Below are positions 34,701 to 61,851 of a stretch of 64,000 nt of DNA, in pieces. This DNA comes from a virus (taxonomy: Duplodnaviria; Caudoviricetes), in the IMG/VR virus record IMGVR_UViG_3300025413_001239; one strand, given 5' to 3'. Numbering within the stretch: the stretch's first letter is position 1; every line of letters begins with the position of its first letter. The position numbers and the translations under genes are program-made. The notes beneath the pieces are model-generated. The model searched no databases, had not been told where the DNA came from, and was given only the letters and a program-made list of their open reading frames with translations.

Positions 34701-35751
34701 ATAAATGATATTGCATATCACTGAACATTTTTAATTTATGCCCAAGTGGTAATCGTTTATTTATTTCGCTTATAATTTCAATATCATTTGATGTAAATCT
34801 AATATTATGTGAACTAAACCCACCGTCACCTAATAAACACCCCATAATATAAGGGTCTAAATTTAAACTAGACTTACAAAATTCAACAGGTTTAACTATT
34901 GGTAAATACCATTTAACATTACCATTGGTTCCATAAGTTAAATCGGACATAATAGCTTTTAATTCTTTAACAATAAAACCTTTGTTTCTTTTTTTATGGT
35001 TAGTAGTTTGAACAGCCCATAAGTGTTCATCGCAAGACTCAATCATAGTTCCATCGGTTAACGTTATATTAAAAAATTGTTTTTTAGGTTGCGGATAAAC
35101 ACCTAATATTTTAGTTGGTTTACCATTTGAACCTATAACGTAATCACCAACTTTTAAATCACCGTTTTTAACCCAACCATAAGGTGTTAAAACAGGTGTG
35201 TCGTTAGCTAAAACCTTACCAAGTCCCATATCATCTGCGAGGATACATCCGTTACGACTTAATAAAAATTTTATACCTTCTTCTTGGTGTTTATAGAGTT
35301 GTTTACCATCTTTAGCCAATACATTATTATACTTAGTAAAATCAACTTCAATATTAATTTCTTCATAATAAGGGTCATCTAAGACTTGTGTCTTTGGTAG
35401 CCAATACATTTTAGATTGTTGTTGGTTTTGTTTTAGTTTACCATAAACGTGATAAGTTTTTTCACTATCAGCTAAAATATATTCAATAAGTATTTTTTCT
35501 GGAATAAAAGATAATTCATTTTGTTTTTGTAGTTCTTCACCTAAATAAGGTGATATTCTTATCACTTTATTAATAAGGATTGGTTCTTTATCGTGATTAT
35601 CAATTATGTATTTTGTTTGTGTTTCAGTAAGTACAATTTTTTTATTATTTAGATATTCATTTCGTAATTTTTTTAAATACGGATTTATACCTGAATAATT
35701 TTCAAGAAAGGTTATTGCTGAACGGCCCTTTATGTCATCAAGATTTATCAA
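31768..35751 (-). CDS. SNF2/HARP-like helicase with two inteins (TTG start)
   Basis: LADDMGLGK|T, VDEAH, LLTGTP and QAEDR|CYRIGQ. Confidence 0.92.
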   Translation of the reverse strand: MINLDDIKGRSAITFLENYSGINPYLKKLRNEYLNNKKIVLTETQTKYIIDNHDKEPILINKVIRISPYLGEELQKQNELSFIPEKILIEYILADSEKTYHVYGKLKQNQQQSKMYWLPKTQVLDDPYYEEINIEVDFTKYNNVLAKDGKQLYKHQEEGIKFLLSRNGCILADDMGLGKVLANDTPVLTPYGWVKNGDLKVGDYVIGSNGKPTKILGVYPQPKKQFFNITLTDGTMIESCDEHLWAVQTTNHKKRNKGFIVKELKAIMSDLTYGTNGNVKWYLPIVKPVEFCKSSLNLDPYIMGCLLGDGGFSSHNIRFTSNDIEIISEINKRLPLGHKLKMFSDMQYHLCGVNNTNLVIRELNEYSLMGLTSEFKFIPKPYLYSDIDDRINLLQGLLDTDGYCSKLGTVQYYTVSKELANNVRELVQSLGGVVKMTSKVGKYKLPDGTIKDCKLCFILTINLPIEIIPFKLNRKIKYLNKNKKYHPTRGIKSVEFSRVTTGQCIMVEAKDHLYVMDSYVVTHNTTQSIIAALESGAKNILVVCPSSVKINWKREIEVFCKDVTIVNGRKWDRAKFTIINFDILKNFHTIGDGKKKKDTDPVLELNRHIVNSRFDLAIVDEAHNLKNNKSIRGEIMVDLSVNHGIEKVWLLTGTPIANRPMDFFNLLKIIKAPIADNWHYFASRYCDAKKFFRTLKNGSRKQIWLTDGASNLEELSIKTRNLIIRRLKTDVLDMPDKVITPVYHELSDKGWKEYDMLWDEYLQKLEKENKKASTQRDLVELILLRKFIAMEAIPETIEMTENALEIGKKVIIFTSFTDELNELAEHFGKLCVTHNGVMSDRDKQNSVDSFQNNPNVKVFIGNIKSAGVGITLTEATVVIFNSFDWVTGNNEQAEDRCIFGGQLVMTNNGYKLIEDINIGDMVYTHMGNFKKVVNKHTHLERNKLRYDINAFGYNKELSVTEDHKLFIYDSELEIFSWVEAKNLDIKKHFLTLKSNNLPESRKEYLIINNNVNKTFINSHNTEQINGRLIELPEKIELTNELLYSFGFYIAEGWSVIENKTKSSSVNVCQKITNKKMYDSAEYIIDIIKKHFNIDKHSSYIDKNNVKTCTIYSKNLAIIFSELFGCGVKNKKMPDWINELNFEQLSSLINGFNHGDGYFRKNTQQNITASSQLGSELVRCSANLGNNVSFSIRPINDMVYYQTENSIDNKNGLNRIKKIGEYITYPIVGIHISKPKRGQERVYDLSVEDDNSFVVGNYNVHNCYRIGQKNDVNVYYQLFDKTISTRMWNVLKNKKDIISTIMGDAKLSDDEILEIMIDKMLLENDESI
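31969..33063 (-). mobile_element. 365-aa class 1 intein in helicase motif VI
   Basis: DR|CIFGGQLVM...VTEDH...YNVHN|CYRIGQ; LAGLIDADG helices GFYIAEG and GFNHGDG. Confidence 0.93.
34180..35214 (-). mobile_element. 345-aa class 3-like intein (Val1) in helicase Walker A
   Basis: GK|VLANDTPVLTPYGW...DEHLW...GQCIMV...VVTHN|TT, carrying the W-C-T triad. Confidence 0.88.
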
Positions 35752-45864: not shown

Positions 45865-46683
45865 ATGATAGAACAAATATTTTATCAGAGTTCAATGCCT
45901 CGTGCGGGTTCAACTCTATTACAAAACATTTTAGCACAAAATCCAGATATATACGCGACACCAACATCTGGTGTTCTTGAATTAATTTTTGCTGCTAGAG
46001 GTAATTACACCTCATCACCTGAGTTTAAAGCACAAGACCCTGAATTGATGAAATCAGGATTCCTTAACTTTTGTAAAGAAGGTATGTATGGATTTTATAA
46101 TGGGATTACGGATAAAAAGTATGTTATCGATAAGAGTAGAGGGTGGGGAATTCATTATGATTTTTTAAACCTTATACATGGTAACCCAAAGATTATATGT
46201 ATGGTTAGGGACCCTAGGGATATATTTACATCAATGGAAAAAAACTTTAGAAAAGCTAGTGATAAAGCAAGTCCGTTGGTTGATTGGAGTAAAATGCAAG
46301 GAACAACGACACCTAAGCGTATTGATATGTGGGTTCAAAATCCACCAGTTGGTATGGCATTTGAACGTTTAGGTGAAATGATTAGAATGGGTATTGATAG
46401 TAAAATTCATTTTGTAAGATTTGAAGACTTGTGTCTTTATCCAGAACAAACTCTAGGTAAGATATATGCTTATTTAGATATTCCATATTTTAAACATGAT
46501 TTTGATAATATCGAACAAATAACAAAAGAAGATGATGAAGTTTATGGTGTGTATGGTGACCATACTATCAGAACAACACTTGAACCAGTTACATCTAAAG
46601 CTAAGGAAATTCTAGGTAAGGATGTTTGTGATTGGATAATGAATAATTATAAATGGTATAACGATAAATTTAGATACAAATGA
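45865..46683 (+). CDS. PAPS-dependent sulfotransferase
   Basis: 5'-PSB motif SMPRAGSTLL; 3'-PB motif CMVRDPRDIFTS. Confidence 0.9.
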   Translation: MIEQIFYQSSMPRAGSTLLQNILAQNPDIYATPTSGVLELIFAARGNYTSSPEFKAQDPELMKSGFLNFCKEGMYGFYNGITDKKYVIDKSRGWGIHYDFLNLIHGNPKIICMVRDPRDIFTSMEKNFRKASDKASPLVDWSKMQGTTTPKRIDMWVQNPPVGMAFERLGEMIRMGIDSKIHFVRFEDLCLYPEQTLGKIYAYLDIPYFKHDFDNIEQITKEDDEVYGVYGDHTIRTTLEPVTSKAKEILGKDVCDWIMNNYKWYNDKFRYK

Positions 46684-47108
46684 TAATTTGGTTAACTGGC
46701 CAGCCAAGTTCTGGTAAAACAACAATAGGAAAGGAGTTATTAAAAAGAAAAGAATTTAGTAACGCATTTTTAATTGATGGTGATAAATTAAGGGAATTAT
46801 TCAATAATCAAGACTATTCTGAAAAAGGTAGAAGAGAAAATATTGAATTAGCTCAGAATTTAGCTTACTACATTAATGATAATTTTAAAACGGTTATCGT
46901 TGCAATGGTATCCCCATACAGGGACCAAAGAGAACGTTTTAAGGAAAAAATGGGTGAAGATATTAAAGAATATTATATACATACAAGTGAAATTAGAGGT
47001 AGGGAAAACTTCCATGTAAGTGATTATGAACCACCATTATTTAATTTTATAGATATCGATACAACAGCAAAAACACCTGAAGAGTCATCAAAATTAATAT
47101 CAATTTAA
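46680..47108 (+). CDS. cysC: Adenylylsulfate (APS) kinase
   Basis: IWLTGQPSSGKTT, IDGDKLR, RRENI, VSPY and YEPP. Confidence 0.9.
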   Translation: MIIWLTGQPSSGKTTIGKELLKRKEFSNAFLIDGDKLRELFNNQDYSEKGRRENIELAQNLAYYINDNFKTVIVAMVSPYRDQRERFKEKMGEDIKEYYIHTSEIRGRENFHVSDYEPPLFNFIDIDTTAKTPEESSKLISI

Positions 47109-47197: not shown

Positions 47198-50100
47198 ATG
47201 GCAAATCAAGTATTCGTTAGTCCAGGTGTTTACACTTCAGAATTAGACCTAACATATGTAACCCGTCAAGTAGGTGTTACAACATTAGGGTTGGTCGGTG
47301 AAACAACAAAAGGACCAGCTTTTCAACCAATTTTCATTAGTGATTATGGTGGCTTCCAAACATTTTTTGGGGGGTTAGATAATACATTAGTAAATGGACC
47401 AGATGGTAATGGTGCTCCATTGTATGAGTTACCATACATTGCAAAATCTTACTTATCTCAATCAAATCAGTTATTCGTAACAAGGATATTGGGTCTTTCT
47501 GGATACCATGCTGGTTTAGCTTGGGGTATCACGCTTAGTGCGGCATTAGACCCGACAACAACTGGTACATCATATGTTTCAACTTATACAGCAAATTATA
47601 CAGTTACTACTGGTGATACTCTTTATAGTATCCAAACAACTGATAGTAATTTAAATGCTTATTATCAACAAAACCCATCAGCATTTAGCTTTTTGGCTGG
47701 TGCAACTACTGGGCAAAGCTATACAATATACATACCACAAGTTAAAAATGGTCTTATATTTAGTGGTGGTTATATTACATTTAATATTATTTCTGCCAGT
47801 GTTACACCATTTATTACTGCTGGTACAGTAACAAATATTTACCCAAATTCTGGTTCATCAACTTTATTAACTTATAAACTTACAACAGGTGGTACTCTTA
47901 CTTCAATTGTATCTACTGATTCATTTGTTAATCAAGTTTATACCGCAACACCTAGTTATTTTAATTTATTTATTACAGCAGCAACTGGTACAGCACAAAA
48001 TATACTAATACCACAAACATCAGATGGTACAACATTCTATGGTGGTAATATTAATTCAAAAGTTCTTTCAACTGGTTATACAGATGCATCAATACCTGTT
48101 TCAGCAAGTTCACCAACTAATTTTACATATACTGCGTCATCAAATAGTAATGTTCTTTATGGTATAACATCTACTGATTCATTTGTTAATCAAATTTATG
48201 CTGCTAGTGCAAGTAGTTTTAATTTCTTAACTGGTGCTACAATTGGTACACAACAAATTTTAACTGAACCAACATTATTATATGGTGGTAATAACTATAG
48301 TGGTGGTTATATAACAATTAATGTTGCTACAACTGGTTACTCTAGTAGCATATTAACTGGTAATTCTATATCACAATTTTTTGGTACATATTCAGCAAGT
48401 ACTGGAAATACACTTTATTCAACAACAGCAACTGCTGGTGGTGGTGCTAACGCATATAATCAATATTATCAACAAAATCCATCAGCATTTACCTTTATAG
48501 CTAGTGGTGTTAGTCAAACAATACAAACCCCAAATGTTTATAACGGTATTCTTTATAGTTACAATACATTAGCTATTACACCATATGCAACTGGTTATAC
48601 AAATGGTGGTAATATAACAGCTGTTGGTAATGCAAATATATACCCAGATACTAGTGGTAATGCTCTATTCTCATATACAGCTTCAACCACAGCAAATACA
48701 CTTAGTAGTTTTGTATCAACGGATGCAATAACAAATCAAATTTATGCTGCTAGTGCAAGTAACTTTAACTTCTTAACTGGTGCTACATTAAATTCAACTG
48801 GTTCTTTAGCTACAGCTTATGCTCCAAACGGAATTAATTTTAATTATAGTGGTATTAATTATAATATTAATGTATTAAATTATACAACACCAGTAACAAG
48901 TGCTATAACTTCTGGATATACCGCTGTATATTCAGCTAGTACTAATGGTATACTTTATTCTACATATAGTCTTAATAATTCAATATATAACTTAGTTTAC
49001 GCTGCTAATCCAGTTCCTTTTTACTTCTTAGCAACAGCTAATACTGGTGCAACAAGTAATATTGCTATAACACGCACACAAATTGGTGCTTACTTTAGTG
49101 GTGGTAATGTAAGTGTAAATGTACTTTCAACTGGTTTTACAAGTCCATCTAGTGTAAATACAGCTGGAACAGTTGGTGTTGGAAGTAATTACATAACAAA
49201 TTTAAATGGTGTTGTATCTTCTTACGCATTGACTAATGTATATGGTAACCCAAATTATGTTACTTATTTTAGTGGTTCAGTATCACCTTCAGCGTTTACT
49301 TTCTTAAATACTGCTAGTACTGGTACTATAACTGGTCCAACATCAAATAACGGTGCTTACTTTACTGGTGGTAGTATTGCAGTAAGTGTACTTTCAACAG
49401 GTTATACAAACCCATCTAGTTTAACAGCATCTACTTCAGTATTTAATGGTACATTCTCTGCAACAACTGGTGGTACACTTAATACAACAAGTGCAACTGG
49501 TGGTGCTGGTTCAGGTTTATATAACTCAGCTTATGCGGCTACACCAAGTGCATTTAACTTCTTAGCAACTGGTGGTACTTATTCAGTTGTAAATGCGCCA
49601 TCATCGTCTAACGGTGCTAATTTTACTAGTGCAAATACTGTAACAATAGTTGCTTTTGCAACTGGTTATACAAACCCATCTAGTGCAACAACAGCAACTA
49701 CACAGTTTACTGGTGTATACTCAGCAAGTACTGGTAATACTCTTTATTCAACAAGTGCAGTTGGTGCTGGTTCAGGTTTATATAACTCAACTTATGCAAC
49801 TACACCAAGTGCGTTTAACTTCTTAACTGGTGGTACAGGTGGAATTGTAACAATAGGTCAATCATCAAATGGTATTAACTATAGTAGTGGTACACTTAAT
49901 TTAAGTGTTCTTTCAACTGGTTATACAAACCCATCAAGTGGTACAACTGTTAGTACATCAGCTTATACAGCAACGTTCTCGGCTAATTCAAGTAATTTAC
50001 TTTACACAACTAGTGGTTCAACACCATTGTATAATAGTACATATAGTGTAAATCCTAATATATTTAACGTAATATCTTCAACAGCTACAGGTACAACAGT

Positions 50101-53100
50101 TAACTTAGCAACAACTTACACACCAAATGGTATTAATTATAGTGGTGCAAATATTAGCGCATATATAGTTTCGACTGGTTATACAAGTCCATCTAGTGCA
50201 ACTACAATTAGTTCATTTACTGGTACTTACGCAGTTAATTTAGGAAACCACACAATTATTAGTACACCAACATTTAGTACACCAATTGCTAATCAAATAT
50301 ATTCAACATACTCAGCTAGTAGCTTTGGTTTTATATATTCAGCAAATAACAATTCTAGTTATGTTGTAAATGTACCTCAAACACAAGTTGGTGCGGTTGC
50401 TACTAGTGGAAATATGTTAACAACAATTAATAGTATAACACCATCTGGTTCATTTACAAACCCATTATTTAATTATACTGGTAATACGTTTACGTATACG
50501 GCTAACTCAAGTAATGGTAATATTGTTGCTATAAATATTCCAGCGTCTAATTCTGGTACAACATTTTTCTACAATTATGGTCCTTACTATTTTAATGGTT
50601 TTGGTCTTTTATCTCCAGGTCAATCATTAACACTTAATTATAATATTGATTGGTTACAATATAGCCCTAACTATACTAGTTACATGGACATTTATATGCT
50701 TTCACAAAACTATGTGGTAACGCAAACTGGTACAACTGGTCAATATATTACAGGTACAACAAGTGGTTTCACTAATGGTTATGCGATTGCTTATAATAAC
50801 ATTACTGTTGGTGTTGGTGGGAATACGACTATAAATACTACATTATATAATATTACTGGTACAACAACTGGTTTAACTGTAAGTACTACAGGTTATTATC
50901 AATCTGTAACTGGTTCTACTAGTGGTTTAACAACAGTTAACTCTGGTATTTACCAATCAATTACTGGTTCAACAAGTGGTACAAGTAGAACTAATTCTGG
51001 TTCATATCAAAGTATTCAATATAATATGACTGGTACTAGTAGTGTTAACACTGGTATTTACCAATCAATTACTGGTTCAACAAGTGGTACAACTATAATT
51101 AGTGGTGGTGTTTATACTTTACTAATTGGTTCAACAAGTGGTACAAGTCAATCATACACTGGTAATTACCAATCAATTACTGGTTCTACAAGTGGTATTA
51201 CAACACAATATAGTGGTTATTATCAAAACTTAACTGGTACAACAAATAATGTCACATTAACATATAATGGTTTCTATAGTAGTATTACTGGTTCTACAAG
51301 TGGTAGTAGCTATACTTACTATGGTGATAATGCTGGTGATTTAACTGGTTTAACAACTGGTATAAGTTACGCTTATACTGGTAGTGGTTATTCGGATGTT
51401 GAAGGAAAGATAATAGCACTTTTACGTTCTAGGGCTACGGTTGACGTATCAACTCAATTACCAACATTCCAAATTGCTAATGTAACTGATATTAACTTTA
51501 GTTCAACTGCAACTGGTGCAACAAAAAATCCTTTAGGTATATTTAATTTGACTGGTACATCTGTAACGCAAGGTATATTTAATTATGAACTTTCATTTGA
51601 TGTTACTAAAAAAGATTACGTTCCTAGAGCATTAGGTAGAATGGCTTTTGATAAAAAGACATCAGTATTCGTTGAGGAATTTTACGGTAATGTATTTACT
51701 AATGACTTTAATGAAGGTAAAATTTATGGTATTAACCAAAGTTTAATTAATTACTCTTCACCAGGTGAATTTGGTCCATTTGATAACTATTTACAACAAT
51801 ATCAATCTGCTGTTACCCCATATGTGGTATCGGAAGTTAAGGGTAACCAAGTTATTAGATTATTTAGATTCTGGACAATATCAGATGGTAATATGGCTAA
51901 TATGGAAATTAAAGTTTCAATTGCTAATATTAGACCTGATACTCAAGAATTTGATGTACAAATTAGAGATTATAACGATACAGATGCTAGACCTAAAATC
52001 CTAGAAGCTTATAGTCGTTGTAATTTAGACCCAACTTCAAATAATTACATTGGTCAATTAATTGGTACATATGATGGTGCTTATGCGTCAAAATCTTCTT
52101 ACGTACTTGTTGAATTAGATGTGAACTCAGATACAACTGATGCTTTCCCAGCTGGTTTTGTTGGGTACCCAGTAAGAGATTACCAAACTAGTGGTAATGA
52201 TAGTGTATTAACACCAGATATTATGTATTATAAGGCTTACGGTACATATGATAACCCACGTAAATTCTATTTAGGTTTAAATGATACTGTTGGTATCGAT
52301 ACAGACTTCTTTGATTACAAAGGTTTACCAATAAAAGGTTTAGAATATAGCGAATGGACTGGACTTACACCAGGTTATCACATGGATATTAATGCTAGTG
52401 CGGTAACAATTGCTGATATTGCTGAATACATAAATGGTGGTTCTGGAGCGACTTATAACCCAATATTTAAATTTGATACTGGTGACGCACCATTCCAAAG
52501 TGAAGCTGGTGTTCAAGGTACGCCATACGCAAACTTATATGCTCGTAAATTTACACTTGTACCTTATGGTGGTTTCGATGGTTGGGACATTTATAGAACA
52601 AGAAGAACGAACTTGGACACTTACGATATTAAGGGTAAGGGTGGTCAAACTGGTTTAAGTTATGGAGCATTTTCTAAGTATCCTCTTCAAGATGGTTCAG
52701 AAGGTCTTACATCAGATTACTACGCATATTTAGAAGGTATTTGGACATTTATAAATCCTGAAGCTGTTAATATAAATGTGTTTGCAACACCAGGTATTGA
52801 TACTTTCGATAACCAATCATTGGTTAACCAAACTATTGAAATGGTTGAGAATAACAGAGCTGACTCATTGTACATAGTTACAACACCAGATTCTGATTCT
52901 ACTGGTACTCCATTGACGGTTTCAAATGTGGTTGATGAGCTTAATGGTAATTTTGATAGTAACTATACAGCAACGTATTGGCCTTGGGTTCAAATATTTG
53001 ATTCTGAAAACACAACATACATATATGTTCCACCAACAAGAGATGTTGTAAGAAATATCGCTTTAACTGATAACATTTCATTCCCATGGTTTGCTGTGGC

Positions 53101-53578
53101 TGGTGTTAACAGAGGTTCGGTAGATTGTATTAAAGCTAGAGTTAAATTAACGCAAACAGATAGGGATACACTTTATGAAAATAGAATTAATCCTATCGCA
53201 ACATTTGCTTCAAATGGTGTTAATATCTGGGGTAATAAAACACTTCAAGTTGCTGATACTTATCTTAATAGAATCAACATTAGAAGACTTTTATTACAAG
53301 CAAGAAAACTTATTTCTGCTGTTTCAATCAGATTGTTGTTCGAACAAAATGATGCTGTGGTTAGAAATCAATTCTTATCACTTGTTAACCCAATATTGGA
53401 TAACATTAGAAGCGAAAGAGGTCTTTCTGATTTTAGAGTTGTGTTAAATAATAGCCCAGAAGATTTTGATAATAATCAATTAACTGGTCAAATATTCCTT
53501 AAACCAACAACAGCGTTAGAATTCATTCAAATTCAATTTGTTATACTTCCATCAGGTGCATCATTTGATAACATTTAA
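47198..53578 (+). CDS. Contractile tail sheath protein with ~1275-aa repeat insertion
   Basis: FVSPGVYTSELD...GETTKGP N-terminus; YWPWVQ, PWFAVAG, LYENRINPI, WGNKTL and RINIRRL C-terminal motifs. Confidence 0.95.
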   Translation: MANQVFVSPGVYTSELDLTYVTRQVGVTTLGLVGETTKGPAFQPIFISDYGGFQTFFGGLDNTLVNGPDGNGAPLYELPYIAKSYLSQSNQLFVTRILGLSGYHAGLAWGITLSAALDPTTTGTSYVSTYTANYTVTTGDTLYSIQTTDSNLNAYYQQNPSAFSFLAGATTGQSYTIYIPQVKNGLIFSGGYITFNIISASVTPFITAGTVTNIYPNSGSSTLLTYKLTTGGTLTSIVSTDSFVNQVYTATPSYFNLFITAATGTAQNILIPQTSDGTTFYGGNINSKVLSTGYTDASIPVSASSPTNFTYTASSNSNVLYGITSTDSFVNQIYAASASSFNFLTGATIGTQQILTEPTLLYGGNNYSGGYITINVATTGYSSSILTGNSISQFFGTYSASTGNTLYSTTATAGGGANAYNQYYQQNPSAFTFIASGVSQTIQTPNVYNGILYSYNTLAITPYATGYTNGGNITAVGNANIYPDTSGNALFSYTASTTANTLSSFVSTDAITNQIYAASASNFNFLTGATLNSTGSLATAYAPNGINFNYSGINYNINVLNYTTPVTSAITSGYTAVYSASTNGILYSTYSLNNSIYNLVYAANPVPFYFLATANTGATSNIAITRTQIGAYFSGGNVSVNVLSTGFTSPSSVNTAGTVGVGSNYITNLNGVVSSYALTNVYGNPNYVTYFSGSVSPSAFTFLNTASTGTITGPTSNNGAYFTGGSIAVSVLSTGYTNPSSLTASTSVFNGTFSATTGGTLNTTSATGGAGSGLYNSAYAATPSAFNFLATGGTYSVVNAPSSSNGANFTSANTVTIVAFATGYTNPSSATTATTQFTGVYSASTGNTLYSTSAVGAGSGLYNSTYATTPSAFNFLTGGTGGIVTIGQSSNGINYSSGTLNLSVLSTGYTNPSSGTTVSTSAYTATFSANSSNLLYTTSGSTPLYNSTYSVNPNIFNVISSTATGTTVNLATTYTPNGINYSGANISAYIVSTGYTSPSSATTISSFTGTYAVNLGNHTIISTPTFSTPIANQIYSTYSASSFGFIYSANNNSSYVVNVPQTQVGAVATSGNMLTTINSITPSGSFTNPLFNYTGNTFTYTANSSNGNIVAINIPASNSGTTFFYNYGPYYFNGFGLLSPGQSLTLNYNIDWLQYSPNYTSYMDIYMLSQNYVVTQTGTTGQYITGTTSGFTNGYAIAYNNITVGVGGNTTINTTLYNITGTTTGLTVSTTGYYQSVTGSTSGLTTVNSGIYQSITGSTSGTSRTNSGSYQSIQYNMTGTSSVNTGIYQSITGSTSGTTIISGGVYTLLIGSTSGTSQSYTGNYQSITGSTSGITTQYSGYYQNLTGTTNNVTLTYNGFYSSITGSTSGSSYTYYGDNAGDLTGLTTGISYAYTGSGYSDVEGKIIALLRSRATVDVSTQLPTFQIANVTDINFSSTATGATKNPLGIFNLTGTSVTQGIFNYELSFDVTKKDYVPRALGRMAFDKKTSVFVEEFYGNVFTNDFNEGKIYGINQSLINYSSPGEFGPFDNYLQQYQSAVTPYVVSEVKGNQVIRLFRFWTISDGNMANMEIKVSIANIRPDTQEFDVQIRDYNDTDARPKILEAYSRCNLDPTSNNYIGQLIGTYDGAYASKSSYVLVELDVNSDTTDAFPAGFVGYPVRDYQTSGNDSVLTPDIMYYKAYGTYDNPRKFYLGLNDTVGIDTDFFDYKGLPIKGLEYSEWTGLTPGYHMDINASAVTIADIAEYINGGSGATYNPIFKFDTGDAPFQSEAGVQGTPYANLYARKFTLVPYGGFDGWDIYRTRRTNLDTYDIKGKGGQTGLSYGAFSKYPLQDGSEGLTSDYYAYLEGIWTFINPEAVNINVFATPGIDTFDNQSLVNQTIEMVENNRADSLYIVTTPDSDSTGTPLTVSNVVDELNGNFDSNYTATYWPWVQIFDSENTTYIYVPPTRDVVRNIALTDNISFPWFAVAGVNRGSVDCIKARVKLTQTDRDTLYENRINPIATFASNGVNIWGNKTLQVADTYLNRINIRRLLLQARKLISAVSIRLLFEQNDAVVRNQFLSLVNPILDNIRSERGLSDFRVVLNNSPEDFDNNQLTGQIFLKPTTALEFIQIQFVILPSGASFDNI
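47560..51390 (+). repeat. Sheath insertion: 12 x ~87-aa units then 12 x ~18-aa strands
   Basis: Units with a (P/A)SxFxF core ending S/ATGYT; strands of consensus GxYQSITGSTSG. Confidence 0.85.
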
Positions 53579-53591
53579 TTAGCACAATAAA
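53531..53591 (+). repeat. 61-bp direct repeat, copy 1 (sheath 3' end plus UTR)
   Basis: 51/61 identical to 55218-55278. Confidence 0.9.
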
Positions 53592-53601
53592 TTAATTTTA
53601 A

Positions 53602-53631
53602 AAAAAGGAGACAAATATTTGTCTCCTTTTT
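53602..53631 (+). terminator. Intrinsic terminator after the sheath gene
   Basis: AAAAAGGAGACAAAT/ATTTGTCTCCTTTTT palindrome. Confidence 0.85.
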
Positions 53632-53698: not shown

Positions 53699-55255
53699 AT
53701 GAAAATAAAGTTAAATTGTATAAACTGTAATAATGATTTTGAAACGGAGTTTAAATATAGAAGTAAGAAGTTTTGTGGTAGGAAGTGTTTTTTTGAATAT
53801 TCTAAAGAGCATAAAACTATTGGTAGAAAAATAGATGAAGAAATAAGGGAAAAAAGAATTTGTTTAATTTGTAATAAAGAATTTGAGTGTAAGAAAAAAC
53901 AAGAAAATAAAATGTGTTCTAATGAGTGTAGAAAAGAATGGAACTCTATAGAAGAAAATAAGTCTAATAGAATAAAATTAAGTAAAGATACATTATTAAT
54001 AAATCATGGTGTTGATTCAATGTTTAAGAAAATTGAATATAAAGCTAACCGTAATCAAATTTTCTTAGATAAAATAGGTGTTATAAATCCGATGAAAGAT
54101 AAGTTAATTGTAAATAAACTACAAAAAACTCTGAATGAAAAACAAATTAAAAACTTACTACCAAAACTTAATGAACATAATATAATATTACTTGATGAAT
54201 ACAGTGTAAATAAAAGTGGTTCAACATCAATGTCTTATAATTTTAAATGTAAAAAGTGTGAAAATATATTTTCAAGTACCGTGCTTGGTTCTGGTAAGAT
54301 ACCAATTTGTAGAAAATGTACACCGTTAGAAAAAAATTCAAAAATTGAAGAAGTAATAAAGGATTTTTTAAATTTAAAAAATATTAAACACTTAGATAAC
54401 AGTAGAAAAATACTTAACGGTAAAGAGATTGATATATTCTTGAGCGATTTTAATTTAGGTATAGAGGTAGACGGCAATTATTTTCATAGTGAAATAAGTG
54501 GTGAAAAAGATAGTAAATATCATTTAAGTAAAACAAAATTAGCACATGAAAAAAATATAAAATTAATACACATATTTGAAGACGAAATACTATATAAAAA
54601 AGACATAGTATTATCTAGATTGAGTAATCAGTTAAATTTAAATAATATAAGATACTTTGCAAGAAATTGTGAAATTAGAATTGTAAGTAAAAAAGAATCT
54701 ACTTTATTTTTAGATAATAATCATATTCAAGGAAATTCTATTGATTTAATAAGATTAGGGTTATATTATAATAATATATTAATTTCATTAATGACATTTG
54801 GTAAAGAGCGAAAAGCTTTAGGTAATATAGAAACTGAGGATACTTATGAATTGGTTAGATTTTGTAATTTAATAAATTCTAATGTTGTTGGTGGGTTTTC
54901 TAAACTTTTAAAACATTTTATTGTAACATATAAACCTAAAAAAATTGTAACTTACGCTGATATTAGATGGTCTGGATTAAATGAATTAGATACTGTTTAT
55001 ATAAAAAATGGTTTTAAGTATATTAAAAATACATCACCAAATTATTGGTACTTAAAAGTTGGACAATATAATCATAGATATCATAGATATAATTTTAGAA
55101 AAGATATTCTAGTTAAAGAAGGTTTTGATAAAAACATGTCTGAATTTGAGATTATGAAATTAAAGGAATTTGATAGAATATGGGACTGTGGAAATATGAA
55201 ATTTGAATGGACTAGAAATTCAATTTGTAATCATGAACTCAGGTGCATCATTTGA
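53699..55255 (+). mobile_element. Hef-like homing endonuclease: zinc ribbons, Vsr/EDxHD-like nuclease, GNAT(Mom)-like C-terminus
   Basis: CxxC...FCGRKC; EIDIFLSDFNLGIEVDGNYFH; YELVRFC...GGFSKLLKHF...IVTYAD. Confidence 0.75.
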
Positions 55256-55278
55256 CAATGTTTAATTAGCACAATAAA
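55218..55278 (+). repeat. 61-bp direct repeat, copy 2 (orphan sheath C-terminus IQFVIMNSGASFDNV*)
   Basis: Diverged copy of 53531-53591, read in another frame by the endonuclease ORF. Confidence 0.9.
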
Positions 55279-55284
55279 ATAAGT

Positions 55285-55312
55285 AAAAAGCCTCTAGCAA
55301 TAGGGGCTTTTT
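55285..55312 (+). terminator. Intrinsic terminator
   Basis: AAAAAGCCTCTA-GCAA-TAGGGGCTTTTT. Confidence 0.85.
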
Positions 55313-55801: not shown

Positions 55802-58800
55802 ATGGCAACAAAAATATTGTTAACAACTGAACAACATGAAAAATTAATGAATCATCTTGTATCAGAAATGGTTACAAACACCAATGAATTAATTAATGAA
55901 AATGGTACCATAAATGAAAGTGTATGGGAAAAAGTTAAATATGGTCTTTCAAAATTAGGTAGATATAAAGCTAATGGTAAAATTTTTGGAAAGGGAAAAA
56001 TAGACAAAGAAGCTGGTGCTAAAATTCAAGCAATTATTGATAAAGAAGGTAATGAACTTATCAAGAATTTAAATGCTAGTATTAAAGAAACTAATCCAGA
56101 ATTCCCTAATAACGAAAAAGGTGACCAATTCTTAAATACTATAATGGAAATTGCAGCTGTTTATGATTCTGTAATCGATGGTGCTAAGAAAGGTACAATA
56201 CCAGCAGACGCTGCTAATGGTATTATTAATGACCTTAGAGATTATGTTAAGAAATTTTTAGATATTGATTTAAAGGCAGCTTATTCAGTTGTTGATGAGA
56301 TTCAAGGTAATACTCTTGAATTAACAGAAGAAGAAGCTATGAGCTTAGATGAAGCTTGGGGCCTAGATGAAGAAGATGGTCCAAGTGGTATAAGAAAAAA
56401 ACCAAATCCAGAAGATATATATGCTAAAGGTGAACCTGAAGACATATCAAAACCAATTGATTTAAATCCAAATGATACCAGACCAGTTAAAGCAAATTCA
56501 CAAGTTGCCACAACCAATCAAAATACTGGCGTTGCCAACACTAATCAAAATACTGGCGTTGCTACAACTAATCAAAATACTGGCGTTGCCAACACTAATC
56601 AAAATACTGGCGTTGCTACAACTAATCAAAATACTGGTGTTGCCAACACTAATAATAGTAATATTATAGATAAAGGTACTGGTAAGGCTAGTACTAGAAA
56701 TAAAGATATAACAGATATTGATTACGAGGATATACCAAATAATCAAGCATCAAATGGTGGTGCTGCTAGTTCTGCTGGTGGTATTGGGAATGGTGCAGCT
56801 GCTAGTTCTGCTGGTGGTATTGGGAATGGTGCAGCTGCTAGTTCTGCTGGTGGTGGTGCAGCTGGTGGTGGAAAACAAGGTTTAAACGCTAAGGATGTTA
56901 GAGCTGGCTTACAAGCTAAAAGAGGTGCTGGTGATGATTTTGCTAGTACTAGAATGAATACACTTAAATCAAATAAATTACCAATGACACTTGCTGGTAT
57001 TGGTGCTAGTTTGGGTGCTTTTAGTTGGCTTGTTAATACAGATTGGTTTAAACACTTATTTGATGTCGTTAGTAAAAATCCATCTATTGAAATGGTTAAC
57101 AAACAGGTTGCTAGTAATTCAGATATTATTGGTAATATAAAACCAGGTCAAGGTCTTACTCAACTTATGAATGCGATGAACCATGCTGGTATAACACCTA
57201 AAACAACACCAGAACAATTTTTAGAACAAGTTAAAATACTAGGTGGTGGTGACGTAAATGCTGGTATTAATGCTTTAGCAGCTAAAGGTGGTATATTTGT
57301 TAATCCAGATGCCGCTAAATCAGTATTGACTGATATAGCAAAAAATCCACATGGTCATGGTGATACTCTAGGTCAAATATTTAAAGGAAAATGGGCTGGT
57401 ACTGGTAAATCAGTGGGTGATATGCTTACTTGTAAGGACATGGGCCAAGTAAAAGGACTTATATCTACTACAATTACTAAAGCAGTACCAACACTAGTTA
57501 TGAAAACAGCTATTAAGACTGGTGCTGGATATGCTGCTGCGAAGGGATTAGGAGCCATTCTAGGCCCTATTGGTTTAGCTGCTGTGGGTACGGGTGCATT
57601 AGTTAAAATAATGCGTATGAAAGGCCAAAAACAGTCAAGGGCTAAAACTCTTAACGACTTGTATCAATCATTAAGAAACATAGATGGTGGTGTTGGTTTA
57701 GTTGAACCAGAAACAGAAACAGTAAGTGTTGATGCTGTATCAAATCCACAAGAATTAAGTAATATAGCTAGTAGTGATAATGGTGGTGATAAAGGTGGTG
57801 ATAAAGGTGCTAACGTAGCTAATGCTGATACGCAAAAGGGTGGTGACAATAAGATGTCACAAGTTAATGATGACCTTTATAATTCTATTAAAAATTTATT
57901 TAAATTTGTTGTTAATAATAGAAAAAATTTAGGTGTTCGTTCTGCTAATAATGTTGGTACAGCTAATGCTGATAAACTTGTGAAGGGTCAAAAGGTTAGT
58001 TGGACCAAAAAGGATGGTTCTAATACTACTGGAACAATTGTTGGACCAAGTCAAAACCCAAATGAAACAATTGTTAAAACTCAAAATGGTAATCAAATTT
58101 CTATTAAGACAATAAAACTAACACCAAGTACAAGTCTTAATGAAGGTAAGTACATAAAAGATAAGAGACTTATTCAATTTTTACAGAAAAGCCTATCATA
58201 CGATAAATTAAAATCGTTTGAAGACTTTATGAATAGAGTTGAAATAATCAGGAATAAAATTAAAAAGATTGACCCAATGGGTGATAAGGCTATTCAAAAT
58301 TTTATGTCTGAATATAGTTCAAACCCAATTATGTCAACTGATTTTCAAAAATTATTCTCAATAGACCCTAATAATCCACAAGCTGTAAATGCGCTTAAGG
58401 CTTTTATTGATGATATTTTTATTACGGTTTATTCTGGTAAATTCAAATATGGTAACATGATTGATAAGATGGCTGGAATCGGTGGAAGTATAAATTCATT
58501 GGAAGAAGAAGCTGGGTATAATTTTAAAGAACCAAATAAATCATTTAAAAAAGATGCTCAAAATAGAGGTTCATTTAAAAATAATTTGGTTAAGTTCTTA
58601 TCAACAACAATTAATTTGTTCCAATATATGAATAAATTAAAGGATAGTGGTAAATTAAATTCTGGTAAAAAAACAAGTAATTCTGGTTCACAAAAACCAC
58701 AAGCACAACCACAACAAAATAAAGAACCACAAGCACAACAAAATAAAGAACCACAAGCACAACAAAATAAAGAACCACAACAAGTACAACAAGCTAAACC

Positions 58801-58927
58801 AGCTGGTCAAGCAAATCCGAATAGAAATCCAGAAAAATCAGAAATATCAAATGATATAGAATGGATGGAAGAAAATAAGAGTGTGAAAGAAAATATAGAA
58901 AGAATTAAAAAAATAATGTTTAGTTAA
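55802..58927 (+). CDS. Large putative virion protein with low-complexity repeats and hydrophobic G/A-rich segments
   Basis: 9-aa, 12-aa and 8-aa tandem repeats; LAGIGASLGAFSWLV and GLGAILGPIGLAAVGTGALV. Confidence 0.7.
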   Translation: MATKILLTTEQHEKLMNHLVSEMVTNTNELINENGTINESVWEKVKYGLSKLGRYKANGKIFGKGKIDKEAGAKIQAIIDKEGNELIKNLNASIKETNPEFPNNEKGDQFLNTIMEIAAVYDSVIDGAKKGTIPADAANGIINDLRDYVKKFLDIDLKAAYSVVDEIQGNTLELTEEEAMSLDEAWGLDEEDGPSGIRKKPNPEDIYAKGEPEDISKPIDLNPNDTRPVKANSQVATTNQNTGVANTNQNTGVATTNQNTGVANTNQNTGVATTNQNTGVANTNNSNIIDKGTGKASTRNKDITDIDYEDIPNNQASNGGAASSAGGIGNGAAASSAGGIGNGAAASSAGGGAAGGGKQGLNAKDVRAGLQAKRGAGDDFASTRMNTLKSNKLPMTLAGIGASLGAFSWLVNTDWFKHLFDVVSKNPSIEMVNKQVASNSDIIGNIKPGQGLTQLMNAMNHAGITPKTTPEQFLEQVKILGGGDVNAGINALAAKGGIFVNPDAAKSVLTDIAKNPHGHGDTLGQIFKGKWAGTGKSVGDMLTCKDMGQVKGLISTTITKAVPTLVMKTAIKTGAGYAAAKGLGAILGPIGLAAVGTGALVKIMRMKGQKQSRAKTLNDLYQSLRNIDGGVGLVEPETETVSVDAVSNPQELSNIASSDNGGDKGGDKGANVANADTQKGGDNKMSQVNDDLYNSIKNLFKFVVNNRKNLGVRSANNVGTANADKLVKGQKVSWTKKDGSNTTGTIVGPSQNPNETIVKTQNGNQISIKTIKLTPSTSLNEGKYIKDKRLIQFLQKSLSYDKLKSFEDFMNRVEIIRNKIKKIDPMGDKAIQNFMSEYSSNPIMSTDFQKLFSIDPNNPQAVNALKAFIDDIFITVYSGKFKYGNMIDKMAGIGGSINSLEEEAGYNFKEPNKSFKKDAQNRGSFKNNLVKFLSTTINLFQYMNKLKDSGKLNSGKKTSNSGSQKPQAQPQQNKEPQAQQNKEPQAQQNKEPQQVQQAKPAGQANPNRNPEKSEISNDIEWMEENKSVKENIERIKKIMFS
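56504..56653 (+). repeat. 27-bp coding tandem repeat, 5.5 units (VA[N/T]TNQNTG)
   Basis: GTTGCxAxAACxAATCAAAATACTGGC. Confidence 0.95.
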
Positions 58928-59086: not shown

Positions 59087-59575
59087 ATGTCAGATTTATT
59101 AATGAAAATGCCCTTACCATACGAACCTAAAAGGAAAAATCGTTGGTTAATAACTTTCCCAGCTGATTTGGGTATTCAACAATGGTGGTTAGAAAGTGCT
59201 TCTAGGCCTTCAATTACACAAAATGAAACAGAAATTCAATTTTTAAACACTTCAACATGGGTTATTGGTAGATTTACTTGGGAAGCAATTGACGTTACAT
59301 TTAGAGACCCTATTGGTCCTTCTGCATCACAAGCACTTATGGAATGGGTTCGTCTTCATTCTGAATCAATTACTGGTCGTCAAGGTTATGCCGCTGGTTA
59401 TAAGCGTCAAGTTAATCTTGAGATGCTTGACCCGACTGGTGTTGTTGTTGAAAACTGGCTTTTAGATGGTACTATGCTTACAAACGTTAGCTTCGGTGAC
59501 TTAGGTATGGATGATGATGGTATCGCTCAAATTACAGCAACTTTACGTTTTGATAGAGCTATACTTTTATTCTAG
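59087..59575 (+). CDS. Tail tube protein (gp19-like)
   Basis: PYEPKRKNRW, TWEAIDVTFRDP, YAAGYKR and ITATLRFDRA. Confidence 0.88.
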   Translation: MSDLLMKMPLPYEPKRKNRWLITFPADLGIQQWWLESASRPSITQNETEIQFLNTSTWVIGRFTWEAIDVTFRDPIGPSASQALMEWVRLHSESITGRQGYAAGYKRQVNLEMLDPTGVVVENWLLDGTMLTNVSFGDLGMDDDGIAQITATLRFDRAILLF

Positions 59576-60687: not shown

Positions 60688-61851
60688 ATGAGTGATATAA
60701 AGCCTAATGTATTTCCAAAGGTACAACTAAAAACAACAAATCAAGAAACAACAAATCAAGAAACATTAATTCCAAAACCAGAAGATATTAAACAAATATC
60801 AAGTCAACCTGAGTATGAAGAAAAATTACCAGAACTTATTGATGAATTTTATAATGGTGGTAAAACAAACACGCCGTTAGATGATGCTATTGAGCAAATG
60901 AGACTTAGAACTTTAGAACAATTAAGGCTTAGGAGTGAAGCTAAACAAAAAGAACAAGAAAAATCTAAGGATGAAGTACAAACTGAAAAACCTAAAGAAC
61001 AAATAAAAGAACAACCTAAAGTTATTGTACCAACAAAACAAACAATAACATCACCAATTAAAACAAATTTTAATATGAATTCACAAGATTCTTACATTGA
61101 ACAATTAAGTCAACCTCAATATAATATGAGTTTTGATGTTATTCCTTTACCATCTGAGGGTAAACTTTATAAAAATAAAAAAGCTAATGTTAGAGTAGCT
61201 TATATGACAACGGCAGATGAGAATATTCTTACATCACCTAATTTATTAAAAAGTGGTGAATTTTTAGAGATTCTTATAAATAGAAAACTTCTTGAGCATG
61301 ATTTAAGATATCGTGATTTACATGTTGGGGATAGAAATGCGATTATGCTTTGGATTAGGGCGACTGGTTATGGTGAAATGTATCCAGTAACACTTTTTGA
61401 TGAAAATAATGACCCATTTGAAACGGAGGTTAACCTTAATACATTAAAAGTAAATAAATTAGGAGCTGAACCAGATGCTGAAGGGTTATTTAATTTTAAA
61501 TTACCAGTATCTAAGTTTAATATTAAATTTAGACTATTAAACGTTGGTGACATTGATGATATACAAAAGATTGTTGATGATGAAGAAAAAAATGGTATAC
61601 CAATAAATAATACATCAACATATGCTTTAGAAAGACAATTGGTTGAAGTAGATGGTGAAAGAAATAAAACCCTTATAAAAGAATTTGTTCAAAATATGAG
61701 GGTTGGTGATGCTAAGGCTTTAAGGGACTATATAAGTAATATTGAAAGTGGTGTTGATTTAAATATTGAAGTTGGAACCCCTGGAGGTGGTTCCATTAAA
61801 ACATTTCTTCCACTTAACTTCAAGTTTTTTTGGCCTAACATTTCAATATAA
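60688..61851 (+). CDS. Baseplate hub assembly / tail assembly chaperone (gp26-like)
   Basis: IPLPSEGKLY...MTTADENIL...GDRNAIMLWIRATGYG...FFWP; lies between tube and tape measure. Confidence 0.7.
   Translation: MSDIKPNVFPKVQLKTTNQETTNQETLIPKPEDIKQISSQPEYEEKLPELIDEFYNGGKTNTPLDDAIEQMRLRTLEQLRLRSEAKQKEQEKSKDEVQTEKPKEQIKEQPKVIVPTKQTITSPIKTNFNMNSQDSYIEQLSQPQYNMSFDVIPLPSEGKLYKNKKANVRVAYMTTADENILTSPNLLKSGEFLEILINRKLLEHDLRYRDLHVGDRNAIMLWIRATGYGEMYPVTLFDENNDPFETEVNLNTLKVNKLGAEPDAEGLFNFKLPVSKFNIKFRLLNVGDIDDIQKIVDDEEKNGIPINNTSTYALERQLVEVDGERNKTLIKEFVQNMRVGDAKALRDYISNIESGVDLNIEVGTPGGGSIKTFLPLNFKFFWPNISI

What the first reader, a model, noticed from the sequence alone, without database searches (positions are those of the whole stretch)
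47560..51390. Matryoshka tail sheath: 12 outgoing units mirrored by 12 returning strands, implying a long stalk on every subunit
Seen: 12 units of ~87 aa, with cores NPSAFSF, TPSYFNL, SASSFNF, NPSAFTF, SASNFNF, NPVPFYF, SPSAFTF, TPSAFNF, TPSAFNF, NPNIFNV, SASSFGF and GPYYFNG. After a turn near 50710 come 12 strands of ~18 aa: QYITGTTSG, NNITVGVGG, YNITGTTTG, QSVTGSTSG, QSITGSTSG, QSIQYNMTG, QSITGSTSG, TLLIGSTSG, QSITGSTSG, QNLTGTTNN, SSITGSTSG and GDLTGLTTG. Read in mirror order, atypical unit 7 pairs with the atypical QYNM strand, unit 5 (no TGY end) with TLLIG, and near-twin units 8/9 with near-twin strands. Known: T4 gp18 domains are nested like Russian dolls. Inference: each domain is inserted in a loop of the previous one and completed by a returning strand. 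This gives a there-and-back beta stalk, perhaps 35-50 nm long, and a bottle-brush tail that grows by nested duplication.
Basis: partly seen in the sequence, partly recalled or inferred. Interest (0 to 1): 0.9.

Follow-up and report, generated by a model that had tools for sequence, protein, structure and literature searches.

The report
Giant tail sheath with nested repeat stalk
A 2126-residue tail sheath protein of an uncultured large phage carries 12 repeat modules that most likely sit one inside another like Russian dolls, which would make a thin bristle on each sheath subunit and the deepest nested domain architecture I found described.

Summary
ORF 47198-53578 (+) is a T4-type contractile tail sheath. 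Between its N-terminal core (aa 1-117) and C-terminal core (aa 1397-2126) lie 11 canonical ~87-aa units, one divergent tip unit, and then 12 segments of 17-19 aa.

They have 1+1 (about 100 clusters), 2+2 (8), 4+4, 5+5, 7+7 (11) and 12+12 units and strands, and the counts are always equal. Module number changed in about eight lineages of the core tree. Compared with 1+1 proteins, 2+2 proteins carry one contiguous unit+strand insertion between the unit and its strand.

An AlphaFold2 model of a 2+2 sister protein gives confident 18-residue strands for the end of unit 1 and for the last strand, 115 residues apart. Their register matches covariation seen in the 1+1 modules.

Limits:
- Direct folding of the window's own repeats failed (pLDDT 33).
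- Sequence tests of the mirror order were mostly not significant.

The nested out-and-back stalk is therefore well supported by comparison (about 0.65) but has not been seen directly. Stalk length, straightness and function (probably adhesion) are inferred.

The parts
47198..53578 (+). Tail sheath gene, 2126 aa (about 226 kDa), protein P0001
   Evidence: ORF, translation. Pfam PF04984 at aa 1839-2016, E 2.6e-11. PHROG 23 tail sheath, E 1.3e-54. Family profile hits T4 gp18, E 3e-40.
47198..47548 (+). N-terminal sheath core, aa 1-117
   Evidence: Nearly identical in all family members (MANQVFVSPGVYTSE...). Aligns weakly to residues 4-61 of a solved T4-like sheath.
47549..47821 (+). Unit 1 (aa 118-208), core NPSAFSF
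   Evidence: family unit HMM 69 bits.
47822..48085 (+). Unit 2 (aa 209-296), core TPSYFNL
   Evidence: 60 bits.
48086..48346 (+). Unit 3 (aa 297-383), core SASSFNF
   Evidence: 50 bits.
48347..48625 (+). Unit 4 (aa 384-476), core NPSAFTF
   Evidence: 41 bits.
48626..48886 (+). Unit 5 (aa 477-563), core SASNFNF; lacks the TGY end
   Evidence: 51 bits.
48887..49144 (+). Unit 6 (aa 564-649), core NPVPFYF
   Evidence: 55 bits.
49145..49411 (+). Unit 7 (aa 650-738), core SPSAFTF; atypical N-terminal half
   Evidence: 24 bits.
49412..49675 (+). Unit 8 (aa 739-826), core TPSAFNF
   Evidence: 29 bits. 61% identical to unit 9.
49676..49930 (+). Unit 9 (aa 827-911), core TPSAFNF
   Evidence: 34 bits.
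49931..50188 (+). Unit 10 (aa 912-997), core NPNIFNV
   Evidence: 48 bits.
50189..50446 (+). Unit 11 (aa 998-1083), core SASSFGF; lacks the TGY end
   Evidence: 22 bits.
50447..50734 (+). Tip unit 12 (aa 1084-1179), core GPYYFNG; divergent, 21% aromatic, ends VVTQTGTTG
   Evidence: Not found by the unit HMM. Variable tip units hold the same position in the 4+4, 5+5, 7+7 and some 2+2 homologues.
50735..50788 (+). Strand 1 (aa 1180-1197), QYITGTTSG; proposed partner is the tip unit
50789..50839 (+). Strand 2 (aa 1198-1214), NNITVGVGG; atypical; proposed partner is unit 11
   Evidence: family PSSM -13.6.
50840..50893 (+). Strand 3 (aa 1215-1232), YNITGTTTG; proposed partner is unit 10
50894..50947 (+). 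Strand 4 (aa 1233-1250), QSVTGSTSG; proposed partner is unit 9
50948..51001 (+). Strand 5 (aa 1251-1268), QSITGSTSG; proposed partner is unit 8
   Evidence: Part of the 54/108-nt DNA periodicity.
51002..51055 (+). Strand 6 (aa 1269-1286), QSIQYNMTG; atypical; proposed partner is unit 7
   Evidence: PSSM -19.6.
51056..51109 (+). Strand 7 (aa 1287-1304), QSITGSTSG; proposed partner is unit 6
51110..51163 (+). Strand 8 (aa 1305-1322), TLLIGSTSG; atypical; proposed partner is unit 5
   Evidence: PSSM 2.0.
51164..51217 (+). Strand 9 (aa 1323-1340), QSITGSTSG; proposed partner is unit 4
51218..51271 (+). Strand 10 (aa 1341-1358), QNLTGTTNN; proposed partner is unit 3
51272..51328 (+). Strand 11 (aa 1359-1377), SSITGSTSG; proposed partner is unit 2
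51329..51385 (+). Strand 12 (aa 1378-1396), GDLTGLTTG; proposed partner is unit 1; runs directly into the C-core
   Evidence: Homologous to the single strand of 1+1 proteins, which precedes Y[AS]DVE.
51386..53575 (+). C-terminal sheath core, aa 1397-2126, starting YSDVEGK
   Evidence: 64-67% identical to homologues over 727 aa. Pfam PF04984 and PF17482. Profile matches gp18 residues 300-653.
59087..59575 (+). Tail tube gene (162 aa), genomic context of the sheath
   Evidence: PHROG 4542 tail tube, E 2.4e-27. The order sheath, ~900-aa ORF, 162-aa ORF is the same in homologue loci L199 and L201.

Best explanation
This is the contractile tail sheath protein of an uncultured large myovirus. Relatives lie on contigs of up to 378 kb.

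Its conserved sheath core is split into aa 1-117 and aa 1397-2126. The 1279 residues between them form 12 modules. Each module consists of a body of about 87 aa (two short strands, two short helices around the NPSAF motif, and a hairpin whose second strand is about 18 residues long and ends in ..STGYT) plus one returning strand of about 18 aa (Y.ITGSTSG....YSG).

The returning strand pairs antiparallel with the last long strand of its body. The next module is inserted at the distal turn of that hairpin. The chain therefore runs outward through bodies 1 to 12, turns after the aromatic-rich tip unit, and runs back through strands 1 to 12, so that strand k completes body 13-k.

The result would be a thin, nearly uncharged out-and-back rod on the outer face of the sheath subunit, ending in a variable tip domain. 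The most likely use is adhesion to host-surface or environmental glycans, which would enlarge the capture radius of the tail.

Shown: the sheath identity, the repeat anatomy, the equal counts in all homologues, the contiguous unit+strand insertion in 2+2 proteins, and the confident unit 1 and last strand in a modelled relative.

Inferred: the physical pairing in this protein, the mirror order, the rod shape and length, whether every sheath subunit in the tail carries it, and the function.
For: Sheath identity:
- Pfam and PHROG matches, a profile match to T4 gp18, and a neighbouring tube gene.
- The AF2 model of relative P0168 matches T4 gp18 and other sheaths (Foldseek E 2e-13; VIA Z 20-22).

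One-to-one relation of units and strands:
- Architectures are 1+1 (about 100 clusters), 2+2 (8), 4+4, 5+5, 7+7 (11) and 12+12, with no unequal case.
- The tip unit counts as a unit.
- Multi-module proteins sit on about eight lineages among 1+1 proteins in the core tree.

Insertion site:
- MAFFT aligns the unit and strand of 1+1 proteins to unit 1 and the last strand of 2+2 proteins. Unit 2 plus strand 2 is left as one block between them.

Structure:
- In the AF2 model of P0168 (sister clade of this protein), unit 1 has pLDDT about 88, and its last strand is E189-206.
- The last returning strand is E321-338, pLDDT about 88. Both strands are 18 residues long.
- DCA on 100 1+1 modules puts column pairs 87-102 and 89-100 on one antidiagonal. 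This is a hairpin register that maps to 190/338 through 206/322 in P0168.

Other points:
- A single strand in 1+1 proteins cannot form a solenoid of its own.
- The Mantel test in this protein gives mirror r=0.40 (P=0.025) against parallel r=0.05.
- The two most atypical units (7 and 11) mirror the two most atypical strands (6 and 2).
- Published surveys describe nested, two-segment extra domains in sheaths (PMC9230969).
- Function hint: relatives P0015 and P0191 carry a PF11999 ice-binding-like domain at the same site.
- The tip is 21% aromatic, and the insert has 1.5% charged residues against 17.9% in the core.
Against: - AF2 of this protein's own inner four units plus four strands failed (mean pLDDT 33.6).
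- In the 2+2 model the inner module is not modelled (pLDDT about 35). The alignment itself places 1+1 sequences on unit 1 and the last strand, which may bias the model.
- The DCA rests on an effective 54 sequences, and its top pair may reflect clade structure.
- Mirror-order statistics are weak. The Mantel result is not replicated in eleven 7+7 homologues (r -0.35 to +0.17). The rank correlation of atypicality has P=0.31. The log-odds pairing test is uninformative. The unit and strand match between P0016 and P0003 is ambiguous.
- Strands 5-9 are homogenised at the DNA level while their proposed partner units are only 30-48% identical. The strands therefore look generic rather than co-adapted.
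- There is no evidence on stalk geometry or on function.
Confidence: 0.65

Rival explanations
1. Beads plus a return strut. The 12 units are self-sufficient domains strung outward like beads. The 12 strands form a separate extended beta structure that only brings the chain back to the core. Counts match because the return path must span the same distance, not because each strand is part of a unit's fold.
For: Strands 5, 7 and 9 are nearly identical while their proposed partner units differ. Sequence tests show no specific unit-strand co-adaptation. AF2 gave no confident model of the repeats.
Against: In 1+1 proteins the single strand follows its unit directly and covaries with the unit's last strand. 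In the 2+2 model the last strand is a confident 18-residue beta strand, the same length as the unit's last strand. Exact count equality over six architectures is more than length matching requires.
Confidence: 0.15
2. Domain-swapped mesh. The returning strands complete units of neighbouring sheath subunits, or the modules lie flat and interlock around the tail. The result would be an outer lattice or second layer rather than free bristles.
For: Extra sheath domains are reported to contact neighbouring subunits and stabilise the tail (PMC9230969, read). An outer sheath layer exists in jumbo phage phi-Kp24 (entry 8au1, listed). No geometry was obtained here.
Against: The sheath must rearrange on contraction, and a covalently continuous 12-module swap between neighbours would hinder that (inference). 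The variable, aromatic-rich tip unit at the chain's turning point suits a free distal end.
Confidence: 0.1
3. Disordered brush. The Ser/Thr/Asn/Gly-rich insert is largely unstructured, perhaps glycosylated or sulfated, and the repeats are only compositional.
For: The insert is 54% S/T/N/G and 1.5% charged. AF2 confidence was very low. A sulfotransferase and an APS kinase gene lie directly upstream.
Against: The units keep conserved hydrophobic and aromatic positions and are detected by a family HMM across proteins that share only 20-40% identity. Unit 1 of the relative is modelled at pLDDT about 88 with defined strands and helices. Homologue loci lack the sulfation cassette.
Confidence: 0.05
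4. Assembly artefact. The repeat number was inflated by misassembly of a metagenomic contig.
For: The strand array holds 37- to 108-nt near-identical DNA repeats. Read-level checking was not available.
Against: Units are too diverged at the DNA level to collapse or expand, since TRF finds no unit-length repeat. The frame is open over 6.4 kb and the counts balance at 12 and 12. A protein 100% identical over the parts compared (aa 100-1420 and 1400-2126; stored length 2125 aa) is in the public protein collection from a 68,850-bp JGI contig; it may be this same contig, so this is not independent confirmation.
Confidence: 0.02

Closest known systems
T4 gp18 tail sheath and other multi-domain phage sheaths
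   Same: [quoted passage not shown] Extra domains are inserted between these parts and point away from the tube. Some of them are built from an outgoing and a returning chain segment (PMC9230969). The Russian-doll nesting of gp18 domains is from my own knowledge of Aksyuk et al. 2009.
   Different: gp18 has about three nested, unrelated extra domains in 659 aa. The sheaths surveyed have five or more domains at most. Here one module type is repeated 12 times, giving 2126 aa. The modelled body has two helices, so it does not look like the Ig-like sandwich that is typical of sheath decorations.
Si3 insertion of cyanobacterial RNA polymerase beta' (nested SBHM domains)
   Same: Domains of one type are inserted recursively into one another, producing a long appendage on a conserved core. 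A survey of 2.7 million domains cites it as the deepest case, at six levels (PMC13114784).
   Different: It is an unrelated protein and fold. Its depth is six, against a proposed twelve here, on top of the sheath's own nesting. In the phage family the depth varies between close relatives (1, 2, 4, 5, 7, 12).
Flagellin hypervariable outer domains, including giant flagellins
   Same: A helical polymer subunit has conserved N- and C-terminal parts that form the core, and an out-and-back variable middle that forms surface domains of very different size between relatives. This is from my own knowledge and was not tested here.
   Different: The protein family and the polymer differ. Flagellin outer domains are not a recursion of a single module.
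Surface Ig-like decorations of phages (for example T4 Hoc) and side fibres
   Same: The likely role is the same: weak adhesion to glycans and a larger capture radius. This is an inference.
   Different: Those are separate proteins or beads-on-a-string domains, and fibres are usually trimers. Here a single chain would form the rod and return to its starting point.

Membership tests
Contractile tail sheath (T4 gp18-like; Pfam PF04984 and PF17482) | Phage_sheath_1 domain in the C-terminal part | tested here: met
   PF04984 at aa 1839-2016, 44.1 bits against a cut-off of 31.4. PHROG 23, E 1.3e-54.
Contractile tail sheath (T4 gp18-like; Pfam PF04984 and PF17482) | C-terminal sheath domain (PF17482) | tested here: inconclusive
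   18.3-20.5 bits, below the curated cut-off of 26.9. However, the family profile aligns to gp18 residues 300-653 through to the C-terminus, E 3e-40.
Contractile tail sheath (T4 gp18-like; Pfam PF04984 and PF17482) | Sheath fold with the core formed by the N- and C-terminal parts | tested here: met
   Tested on relative P0168 (core in the sister clade). The AF2 model has pLDDT 76. Foldseek matches T4 gp18 at E 2e-13. VIA Z is 20-22 to sheaths over model residues 24-1043.
Contractile tail sheath (T4 gp18-like; Pfam PF04984 and PF17482) | Gene lies in a tail module next to the tube gene | tested here: met
   Tube gene at 59087-59575 and baseplate hub at 60688-61851. Synteny is conserved in L199 and L201.
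Nested (discontinuous) insertion domains | Equal numbers of outgoing bodies and returning segments in all relatives | tested here: met
   1+1, 2+2, 4+4, 5+5, 7+7 and 12+12 by explicit segmentation. The automatic count agrees except where the first strand is degenerate.
Nested (discontinuous) insertion domains | The inner module is one contiguous insertion between the two segments of the outer module | tested here: met
   Alignment of 1+1 with 2+2 proteins. The alignment is anchored by the flanking cores.
Nested (discontinuous) insertion domains | Three-dimensional contact of body i with strand 13-i (anti-diagonal in the contact map) | tested here: inconclusive
   AF2 of aa 825-1250 failed. In the 2+2 model only the outer pair is confident, and contacts could not be read.
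Ig-like or other known decoration domains | Match to a known domain family or fold | tested here: not met
   No Pfam or PHROG family covers aa 118-1396. The Atlas structural neighbours of a 1+1 module all have TM below 0.5. The exhaustive HMMER search gave only spurious repeat hits. The modelled body contains two helices.
Beta-solenoid or hexapeptide-type helix of 18-residue turns (for the strand array) | Array folds by stacking its own repeats, with copy number independent of other parts | tested here: not met
   No Pfam repeat family was found. Most relatives have a single strand, which cannot stack on itself. Copy number always equals unit number.

The most novel reading that the evidence does not exclude
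One ~105-residue module has been inserted recursively into the distal hairpin of its own copy, twelve levels deep. This would give a single-chain out-and-back rod of roughly 40-70 nm on the sheath subunits (on every one, if this is the phage's only sheath protein), with a variable binding tip. It would be the deepest nested domain architecture I found described (the surveyed maximum is six) and a new way to build a fibre without trimerisation. The depth is tuned between close relatives (1, 2, 4, 5, 7, 12), which needs matched changes in two distant repeat arrays.
Probability: 0.5. Interest if true: 0.85.

Novelty: new variant of a known kind. Interest (0 to 1): 0.72.

Why it matters
- If the nested model holds, this family is a natural series of the same module nested 1 to 12 deep. 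That makes it a test bed for how discontinuous domains fold and how insertion depth evolves.
- It would show that a long rod-like appendage can be made from a single chain that returns to its origin.
- It predicts an unusual virion, with a contractile tail covered in long bristles. Electron microscopy of environmental samples or of a cultured relative could test this.
- It raises an evolutionary question: how are two repeat arrays about 1 kb apart kept at the same copy number?
- For annotation, it explains sheath genes of 1.2 to 2.1 thousand codons in large marine and freshwater phage contigs.

Tried and rejected
- AF2 of aa 825-1250 with a 14-row alignment gave pLDDT 33.6 and is unusable.
No whole genome is held.
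- The exhaustive HMMER search with aa 221-1420 returned five hits, all unrelated short-repeat proteins.
- The word-based search with aa 100-1420 found only the protein itself.
- A degenerate DNA pattern for two consecutive strands in IMG/VR matched 118 loci, none with a sheath core.
- The search for related loci with the family alignment returned 80 loci. By the length of the match nearly all look like 1+1 proteins (about 947 aa); units and strands were not counted in them.
- HMM and PSSM counting of strands undercounts degenerate first strands, so the counts rest on explicit segmentation.
- Mirror-order tests:
  - The Mantel test was positive only in this protein.
  - The rank correlation of atypicality gave P=0.31.
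  - A hand Fisher test of units without TGY ends against atypical strands gave P of about 0.13.
  - Orthology between P0016 and P0003 was ambiguous.
  - The MI log-odds pairing test was uninformative.
- The tip unit gave only weak language-model leads to carbohydrate-binding families (scores 0.75-0.82), too weak to use.
- The 1041-aa ORF downstream is not a second sheath.
- The idea that the strand array is a separate 18-residue solenoid was rejected, because 1+1 relatives have a single strand and copy number always follows unit number.

Full report
**What is there**

The finding lies inside one ORF, 47198..53578 on the + strand, 2126 aa and about 226 kDa. It is a contractile tail sheath.
- Pfam PF04984 matches aa 1839-2016 at E 2.6e-11, and PF17482 matches weakly.
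- PHROG 23 'tail sheath' matches at E 1.3e-54.
- tblastn finds sheath genes in 2446 phage records, but only over the last 300-700 residues.
- A profile of the family matches T4 gp18 residues 300-653 at E 3e-40.
- A tail tube gene (59087-59575) and a baseplate hub gene follow. They are separated from the sheath by homing-endonuclease genes and a ~1040-aa ORF.
- The order sheath, ~900-aa ORF, 162-aa tube recurs in homologue loci.

The window is a low-GC (about 30%) phage genome fragment. Relatives sit on contigs of up to 378 kb.

All 12 core motifs and all 12 strand motifs are present in the stated order. Cores are spaced 83-92 aa and strands 17-19 aa. The protein divides as follows:
- N-core, aa 1-117
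- eleven canonical units, aa 118-1083
- a divergent tip unit, aa 1084-1179
- twelve strands, aa 1180-1396
- C-core, aa 1397-2126

The insert has an unusual composition. It is 54% Ser/Thr/Asn/Gly and 8.8% Tyr. Only 1.5% of its residues are charged, against 17.9% in the core. No Pfam or PHROG family covers it. The module occurs nowhere else in the window.

Searches with the C-core found a family that is 64-82% identical in the core but very different in length. Explicit segmentation gives these architectures:

| Length | Clusters | Units + strands |
|---|---|---|
| 945-955 aa | about 100 | 1 + 1 |
| 1058-1066 aa (P0140: 1002 aa, N-terminally incomplete) | 8 | 2 + 2 (second unit canonical in some, tip-like in others) |
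| 1294 aa (P0016) | 1 | 4 + 4 |
| 1433 aa (P0003) | 1 | 5 + 5 |
| 1635-1653 aa | 11 | 7 + 7 |
| 2126 aa (this protein) | 1 | 12 + 12 |

Two further proteins, P0015 and P0191, have a PF11999 ice-binding-like domain followed by 1 + 1.

No unequal case was seen. Automatic counting agrees except where the first, degenerate strand falls below threshold. On a tree of the cores, multi-module proteins are scattered among 1+1 proteins on about eight lineages. One example is (P0016 n=4, (P0003 n=5, an n=1 protein)). This protein is sister to a clade that holds one 1+1 protein and the canonical 2+2 proteins. Module number therefore changed repeatedly, and both arrays changed together each time. This is the strongest evidence for a one-to-one structural relation.

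**Where the extra modules sit**

MAFFT places the unit and strand of the 1+1 proteins on unit 1 and the last strand of the 2+2 proteins. Unit 2 plus strand 2 remains as one contiguous block between them. A 2+2 protein is thus a 1+1 protein with a whole module inserted between body and strand. The flanking cores anchor this alignment, so it is parsimonious rather than proven.

**Structure prediction**

Folding aa 825-1250 of this protein (four units plus four strands, 14-row alignment) failed, with mean pLDDT 33.6.

Folding the 2+2 relative P0168 with 146 rows gave mean pLDDT 76. The model matches T4 gp18 and other sheaths.
- Unit 1 is confident (pLDDT about 88). Its elements are strands 130-139 and 144-149, helices 152-160 and 162-170 over the NPxxF motif, and strands 176-186 and 189-206.
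- Unit 2 plus strand 2 (residues 208-318) is not modelled (pLDDT about 35).
- The last strand, residues 321-338, is again confident (about 88) and is a single 18-residue beta strand.

Mean-field DCA on 100 1+1 modules (effective number 54) puts two body-strand pairs among the top couplings, columns 87-102 and 89-100. Both lie on one antidiagonal, which indicates an antiparallel hairpin. Mapped to P0168, that register runs from 190/338 to 206/322, which is exactly the span of the two 18-residue strands. I take this as consistent, indirect evidence that the returning strand pairs with the long last strand of its body. On that reading the next module hangs from the distal turn of the hairpin.

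**Mirror order**

Topology favours it. Bodies follow one another without linkers, and so do strands. The tip unit is directly followed by strand 1. Strand 12 runs into the core, as the single strand does in 1+1 proteins.

Sequence statistics add little.
- In this protein, unit similarity correlates with strand similarity in mirror order (r=0.40, P=0.025) and not in parallel order (r=0.05).
- The two most atypical units (7 and 11) mirror the two most atypical strands (6 and 2).
- The Mantel result is not reproduced in the 7+7 homologues.
- The overall rank correlation has P=0.31, and a covariation-based pairing score is uninformative.
- Strands 5, 7 and 9 share up to 37 identical nucleotides and show a 54/108-nt periodicity, while their proposed partner units are only 30-48% identical. 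The strands look generic and prone to gene conversion or unequal crossing-over.

**How it probably works**

Each module of about 105 residues is a narrow alpha/beta unit whose long hairpin points away from the sheath. Twelve of them, nested, would make a thin single-chain rod that goes out and comes back.

If the 18-residue ribbons are roughly straight and collinear, each module adds about 3-6 nm. This geometry is inference only.

The rod ends in a variable tip unit with 21% aromatic residues. Its surface is nearly uncharged and rich in Thr, Ser, Asn and Tyr. Relatives display an ice-binding-like adhesin-type domain at the same site. Together these point to adhesion to host or environmental glycans. 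I hold this loosely, at about 0.4.

Growth by inserting a contiguous module is possible only at the innermost hairpin. Other changes need matched gains in both arrays, and the repetitive strand DNA may make the second step easy.

**Comparison with what is known**

Nested two-segment extra domains are known in sheaths. T4 gp18 is the example I know of, and a survey of 153 modelled sheath proteins and homologues notes domains formed by an outgoing and a 'returning' part, with at most five or more domains (PMC9230969). Recursive insertion of one domain type is known in the Si3 insertion of cyanobacterial RNA polymerase. A survey of 2.7 million domains cites it as the deepest nesting, at six levels (PMC13114784).

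This family would be a new variant of that kind. It uses one module of no recognised fold, nested up to twelve deep, with the depth varying between close relatives.

**Verdict**

- The sheath identity is certain.
- Nested pairing is well supported by comparison (about 0.65) but not seen directly.
- Stalk length, shape and function are open.

**Rivals**

- Autonomous beads with a return strut (0.15)
- A domain-swapped outer mesh (0.10)
- A disordered brush (0.05)
- Misassembly (0.02)

Noticed in passing
window 53529-53602 and 55216-55289: The last 48 nt of the sheath gene plus 26 nt downstream are repeated 1687 bp further on (74 nt, 81% identity). The two copies bracket the HNH homing-endonuclease ORF 53699-55255. 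The second copy would encode ..FVIMNSGASFDNV, which is closer to the family consensus ..FVIMNTGASFDNI than the end now in use (..FVILPSGASFDNI).
   Followed up: partly
window 45865-47108: A sulfotransferase gene (PF13469, E 3e-19) and an APS kinase gene (PF01583, E 2e-17) lie directly upstream of the sheath gene. The homologue loci L199 and L201 do not have them. They might modify the Ser/Thr-rich insert, but this was not tested.
   Followed up: partly
window 55802-58927; L199 13421-16114; L201 12412-15234: A conserved ORF of about 900-1040 aa lies between the sheath and tube genes in this window and in both homologue loci read. The window's copy has no Pfam or PHROG match and no similarity to the sheath family (hhalign probability 0.1%).
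   Followed up: partly
window 50948-51245: The DNA of strands 5-9 shows a 54-nt period and a stronger 108-nt (two-strand) period at 78-79% identity. Strands 5 and 7 share 37 identical nucleotides. This suggests recent gene conversion or two-strand duplications inside the strand array.
   Followed up: partly
proteins P0015 (1177 aa) and P0191 (1158 aa), homologues from other contigs: These relatives carry a PF11999 (DUF3494, ice-binding-like) domain of about 220 aa between the N-core and a single unit+strand module. The same surface site of the sheath is thus used to display a different, adhesin-type domain.
   Followed up: partly
proteins P0017-P0121 (1170-1375 aa): A second, larger group of sheaths is about 46% identical in the core and also has long inserts, but none matches the unit HMM. 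Their inserts were not analysed.
   Followed up: no
window 31768-35751 (-): A 1327-aa ORF matches both DNA helicase/primase and terminase-like PHROGs. I did not examine it.
   Followed up: no
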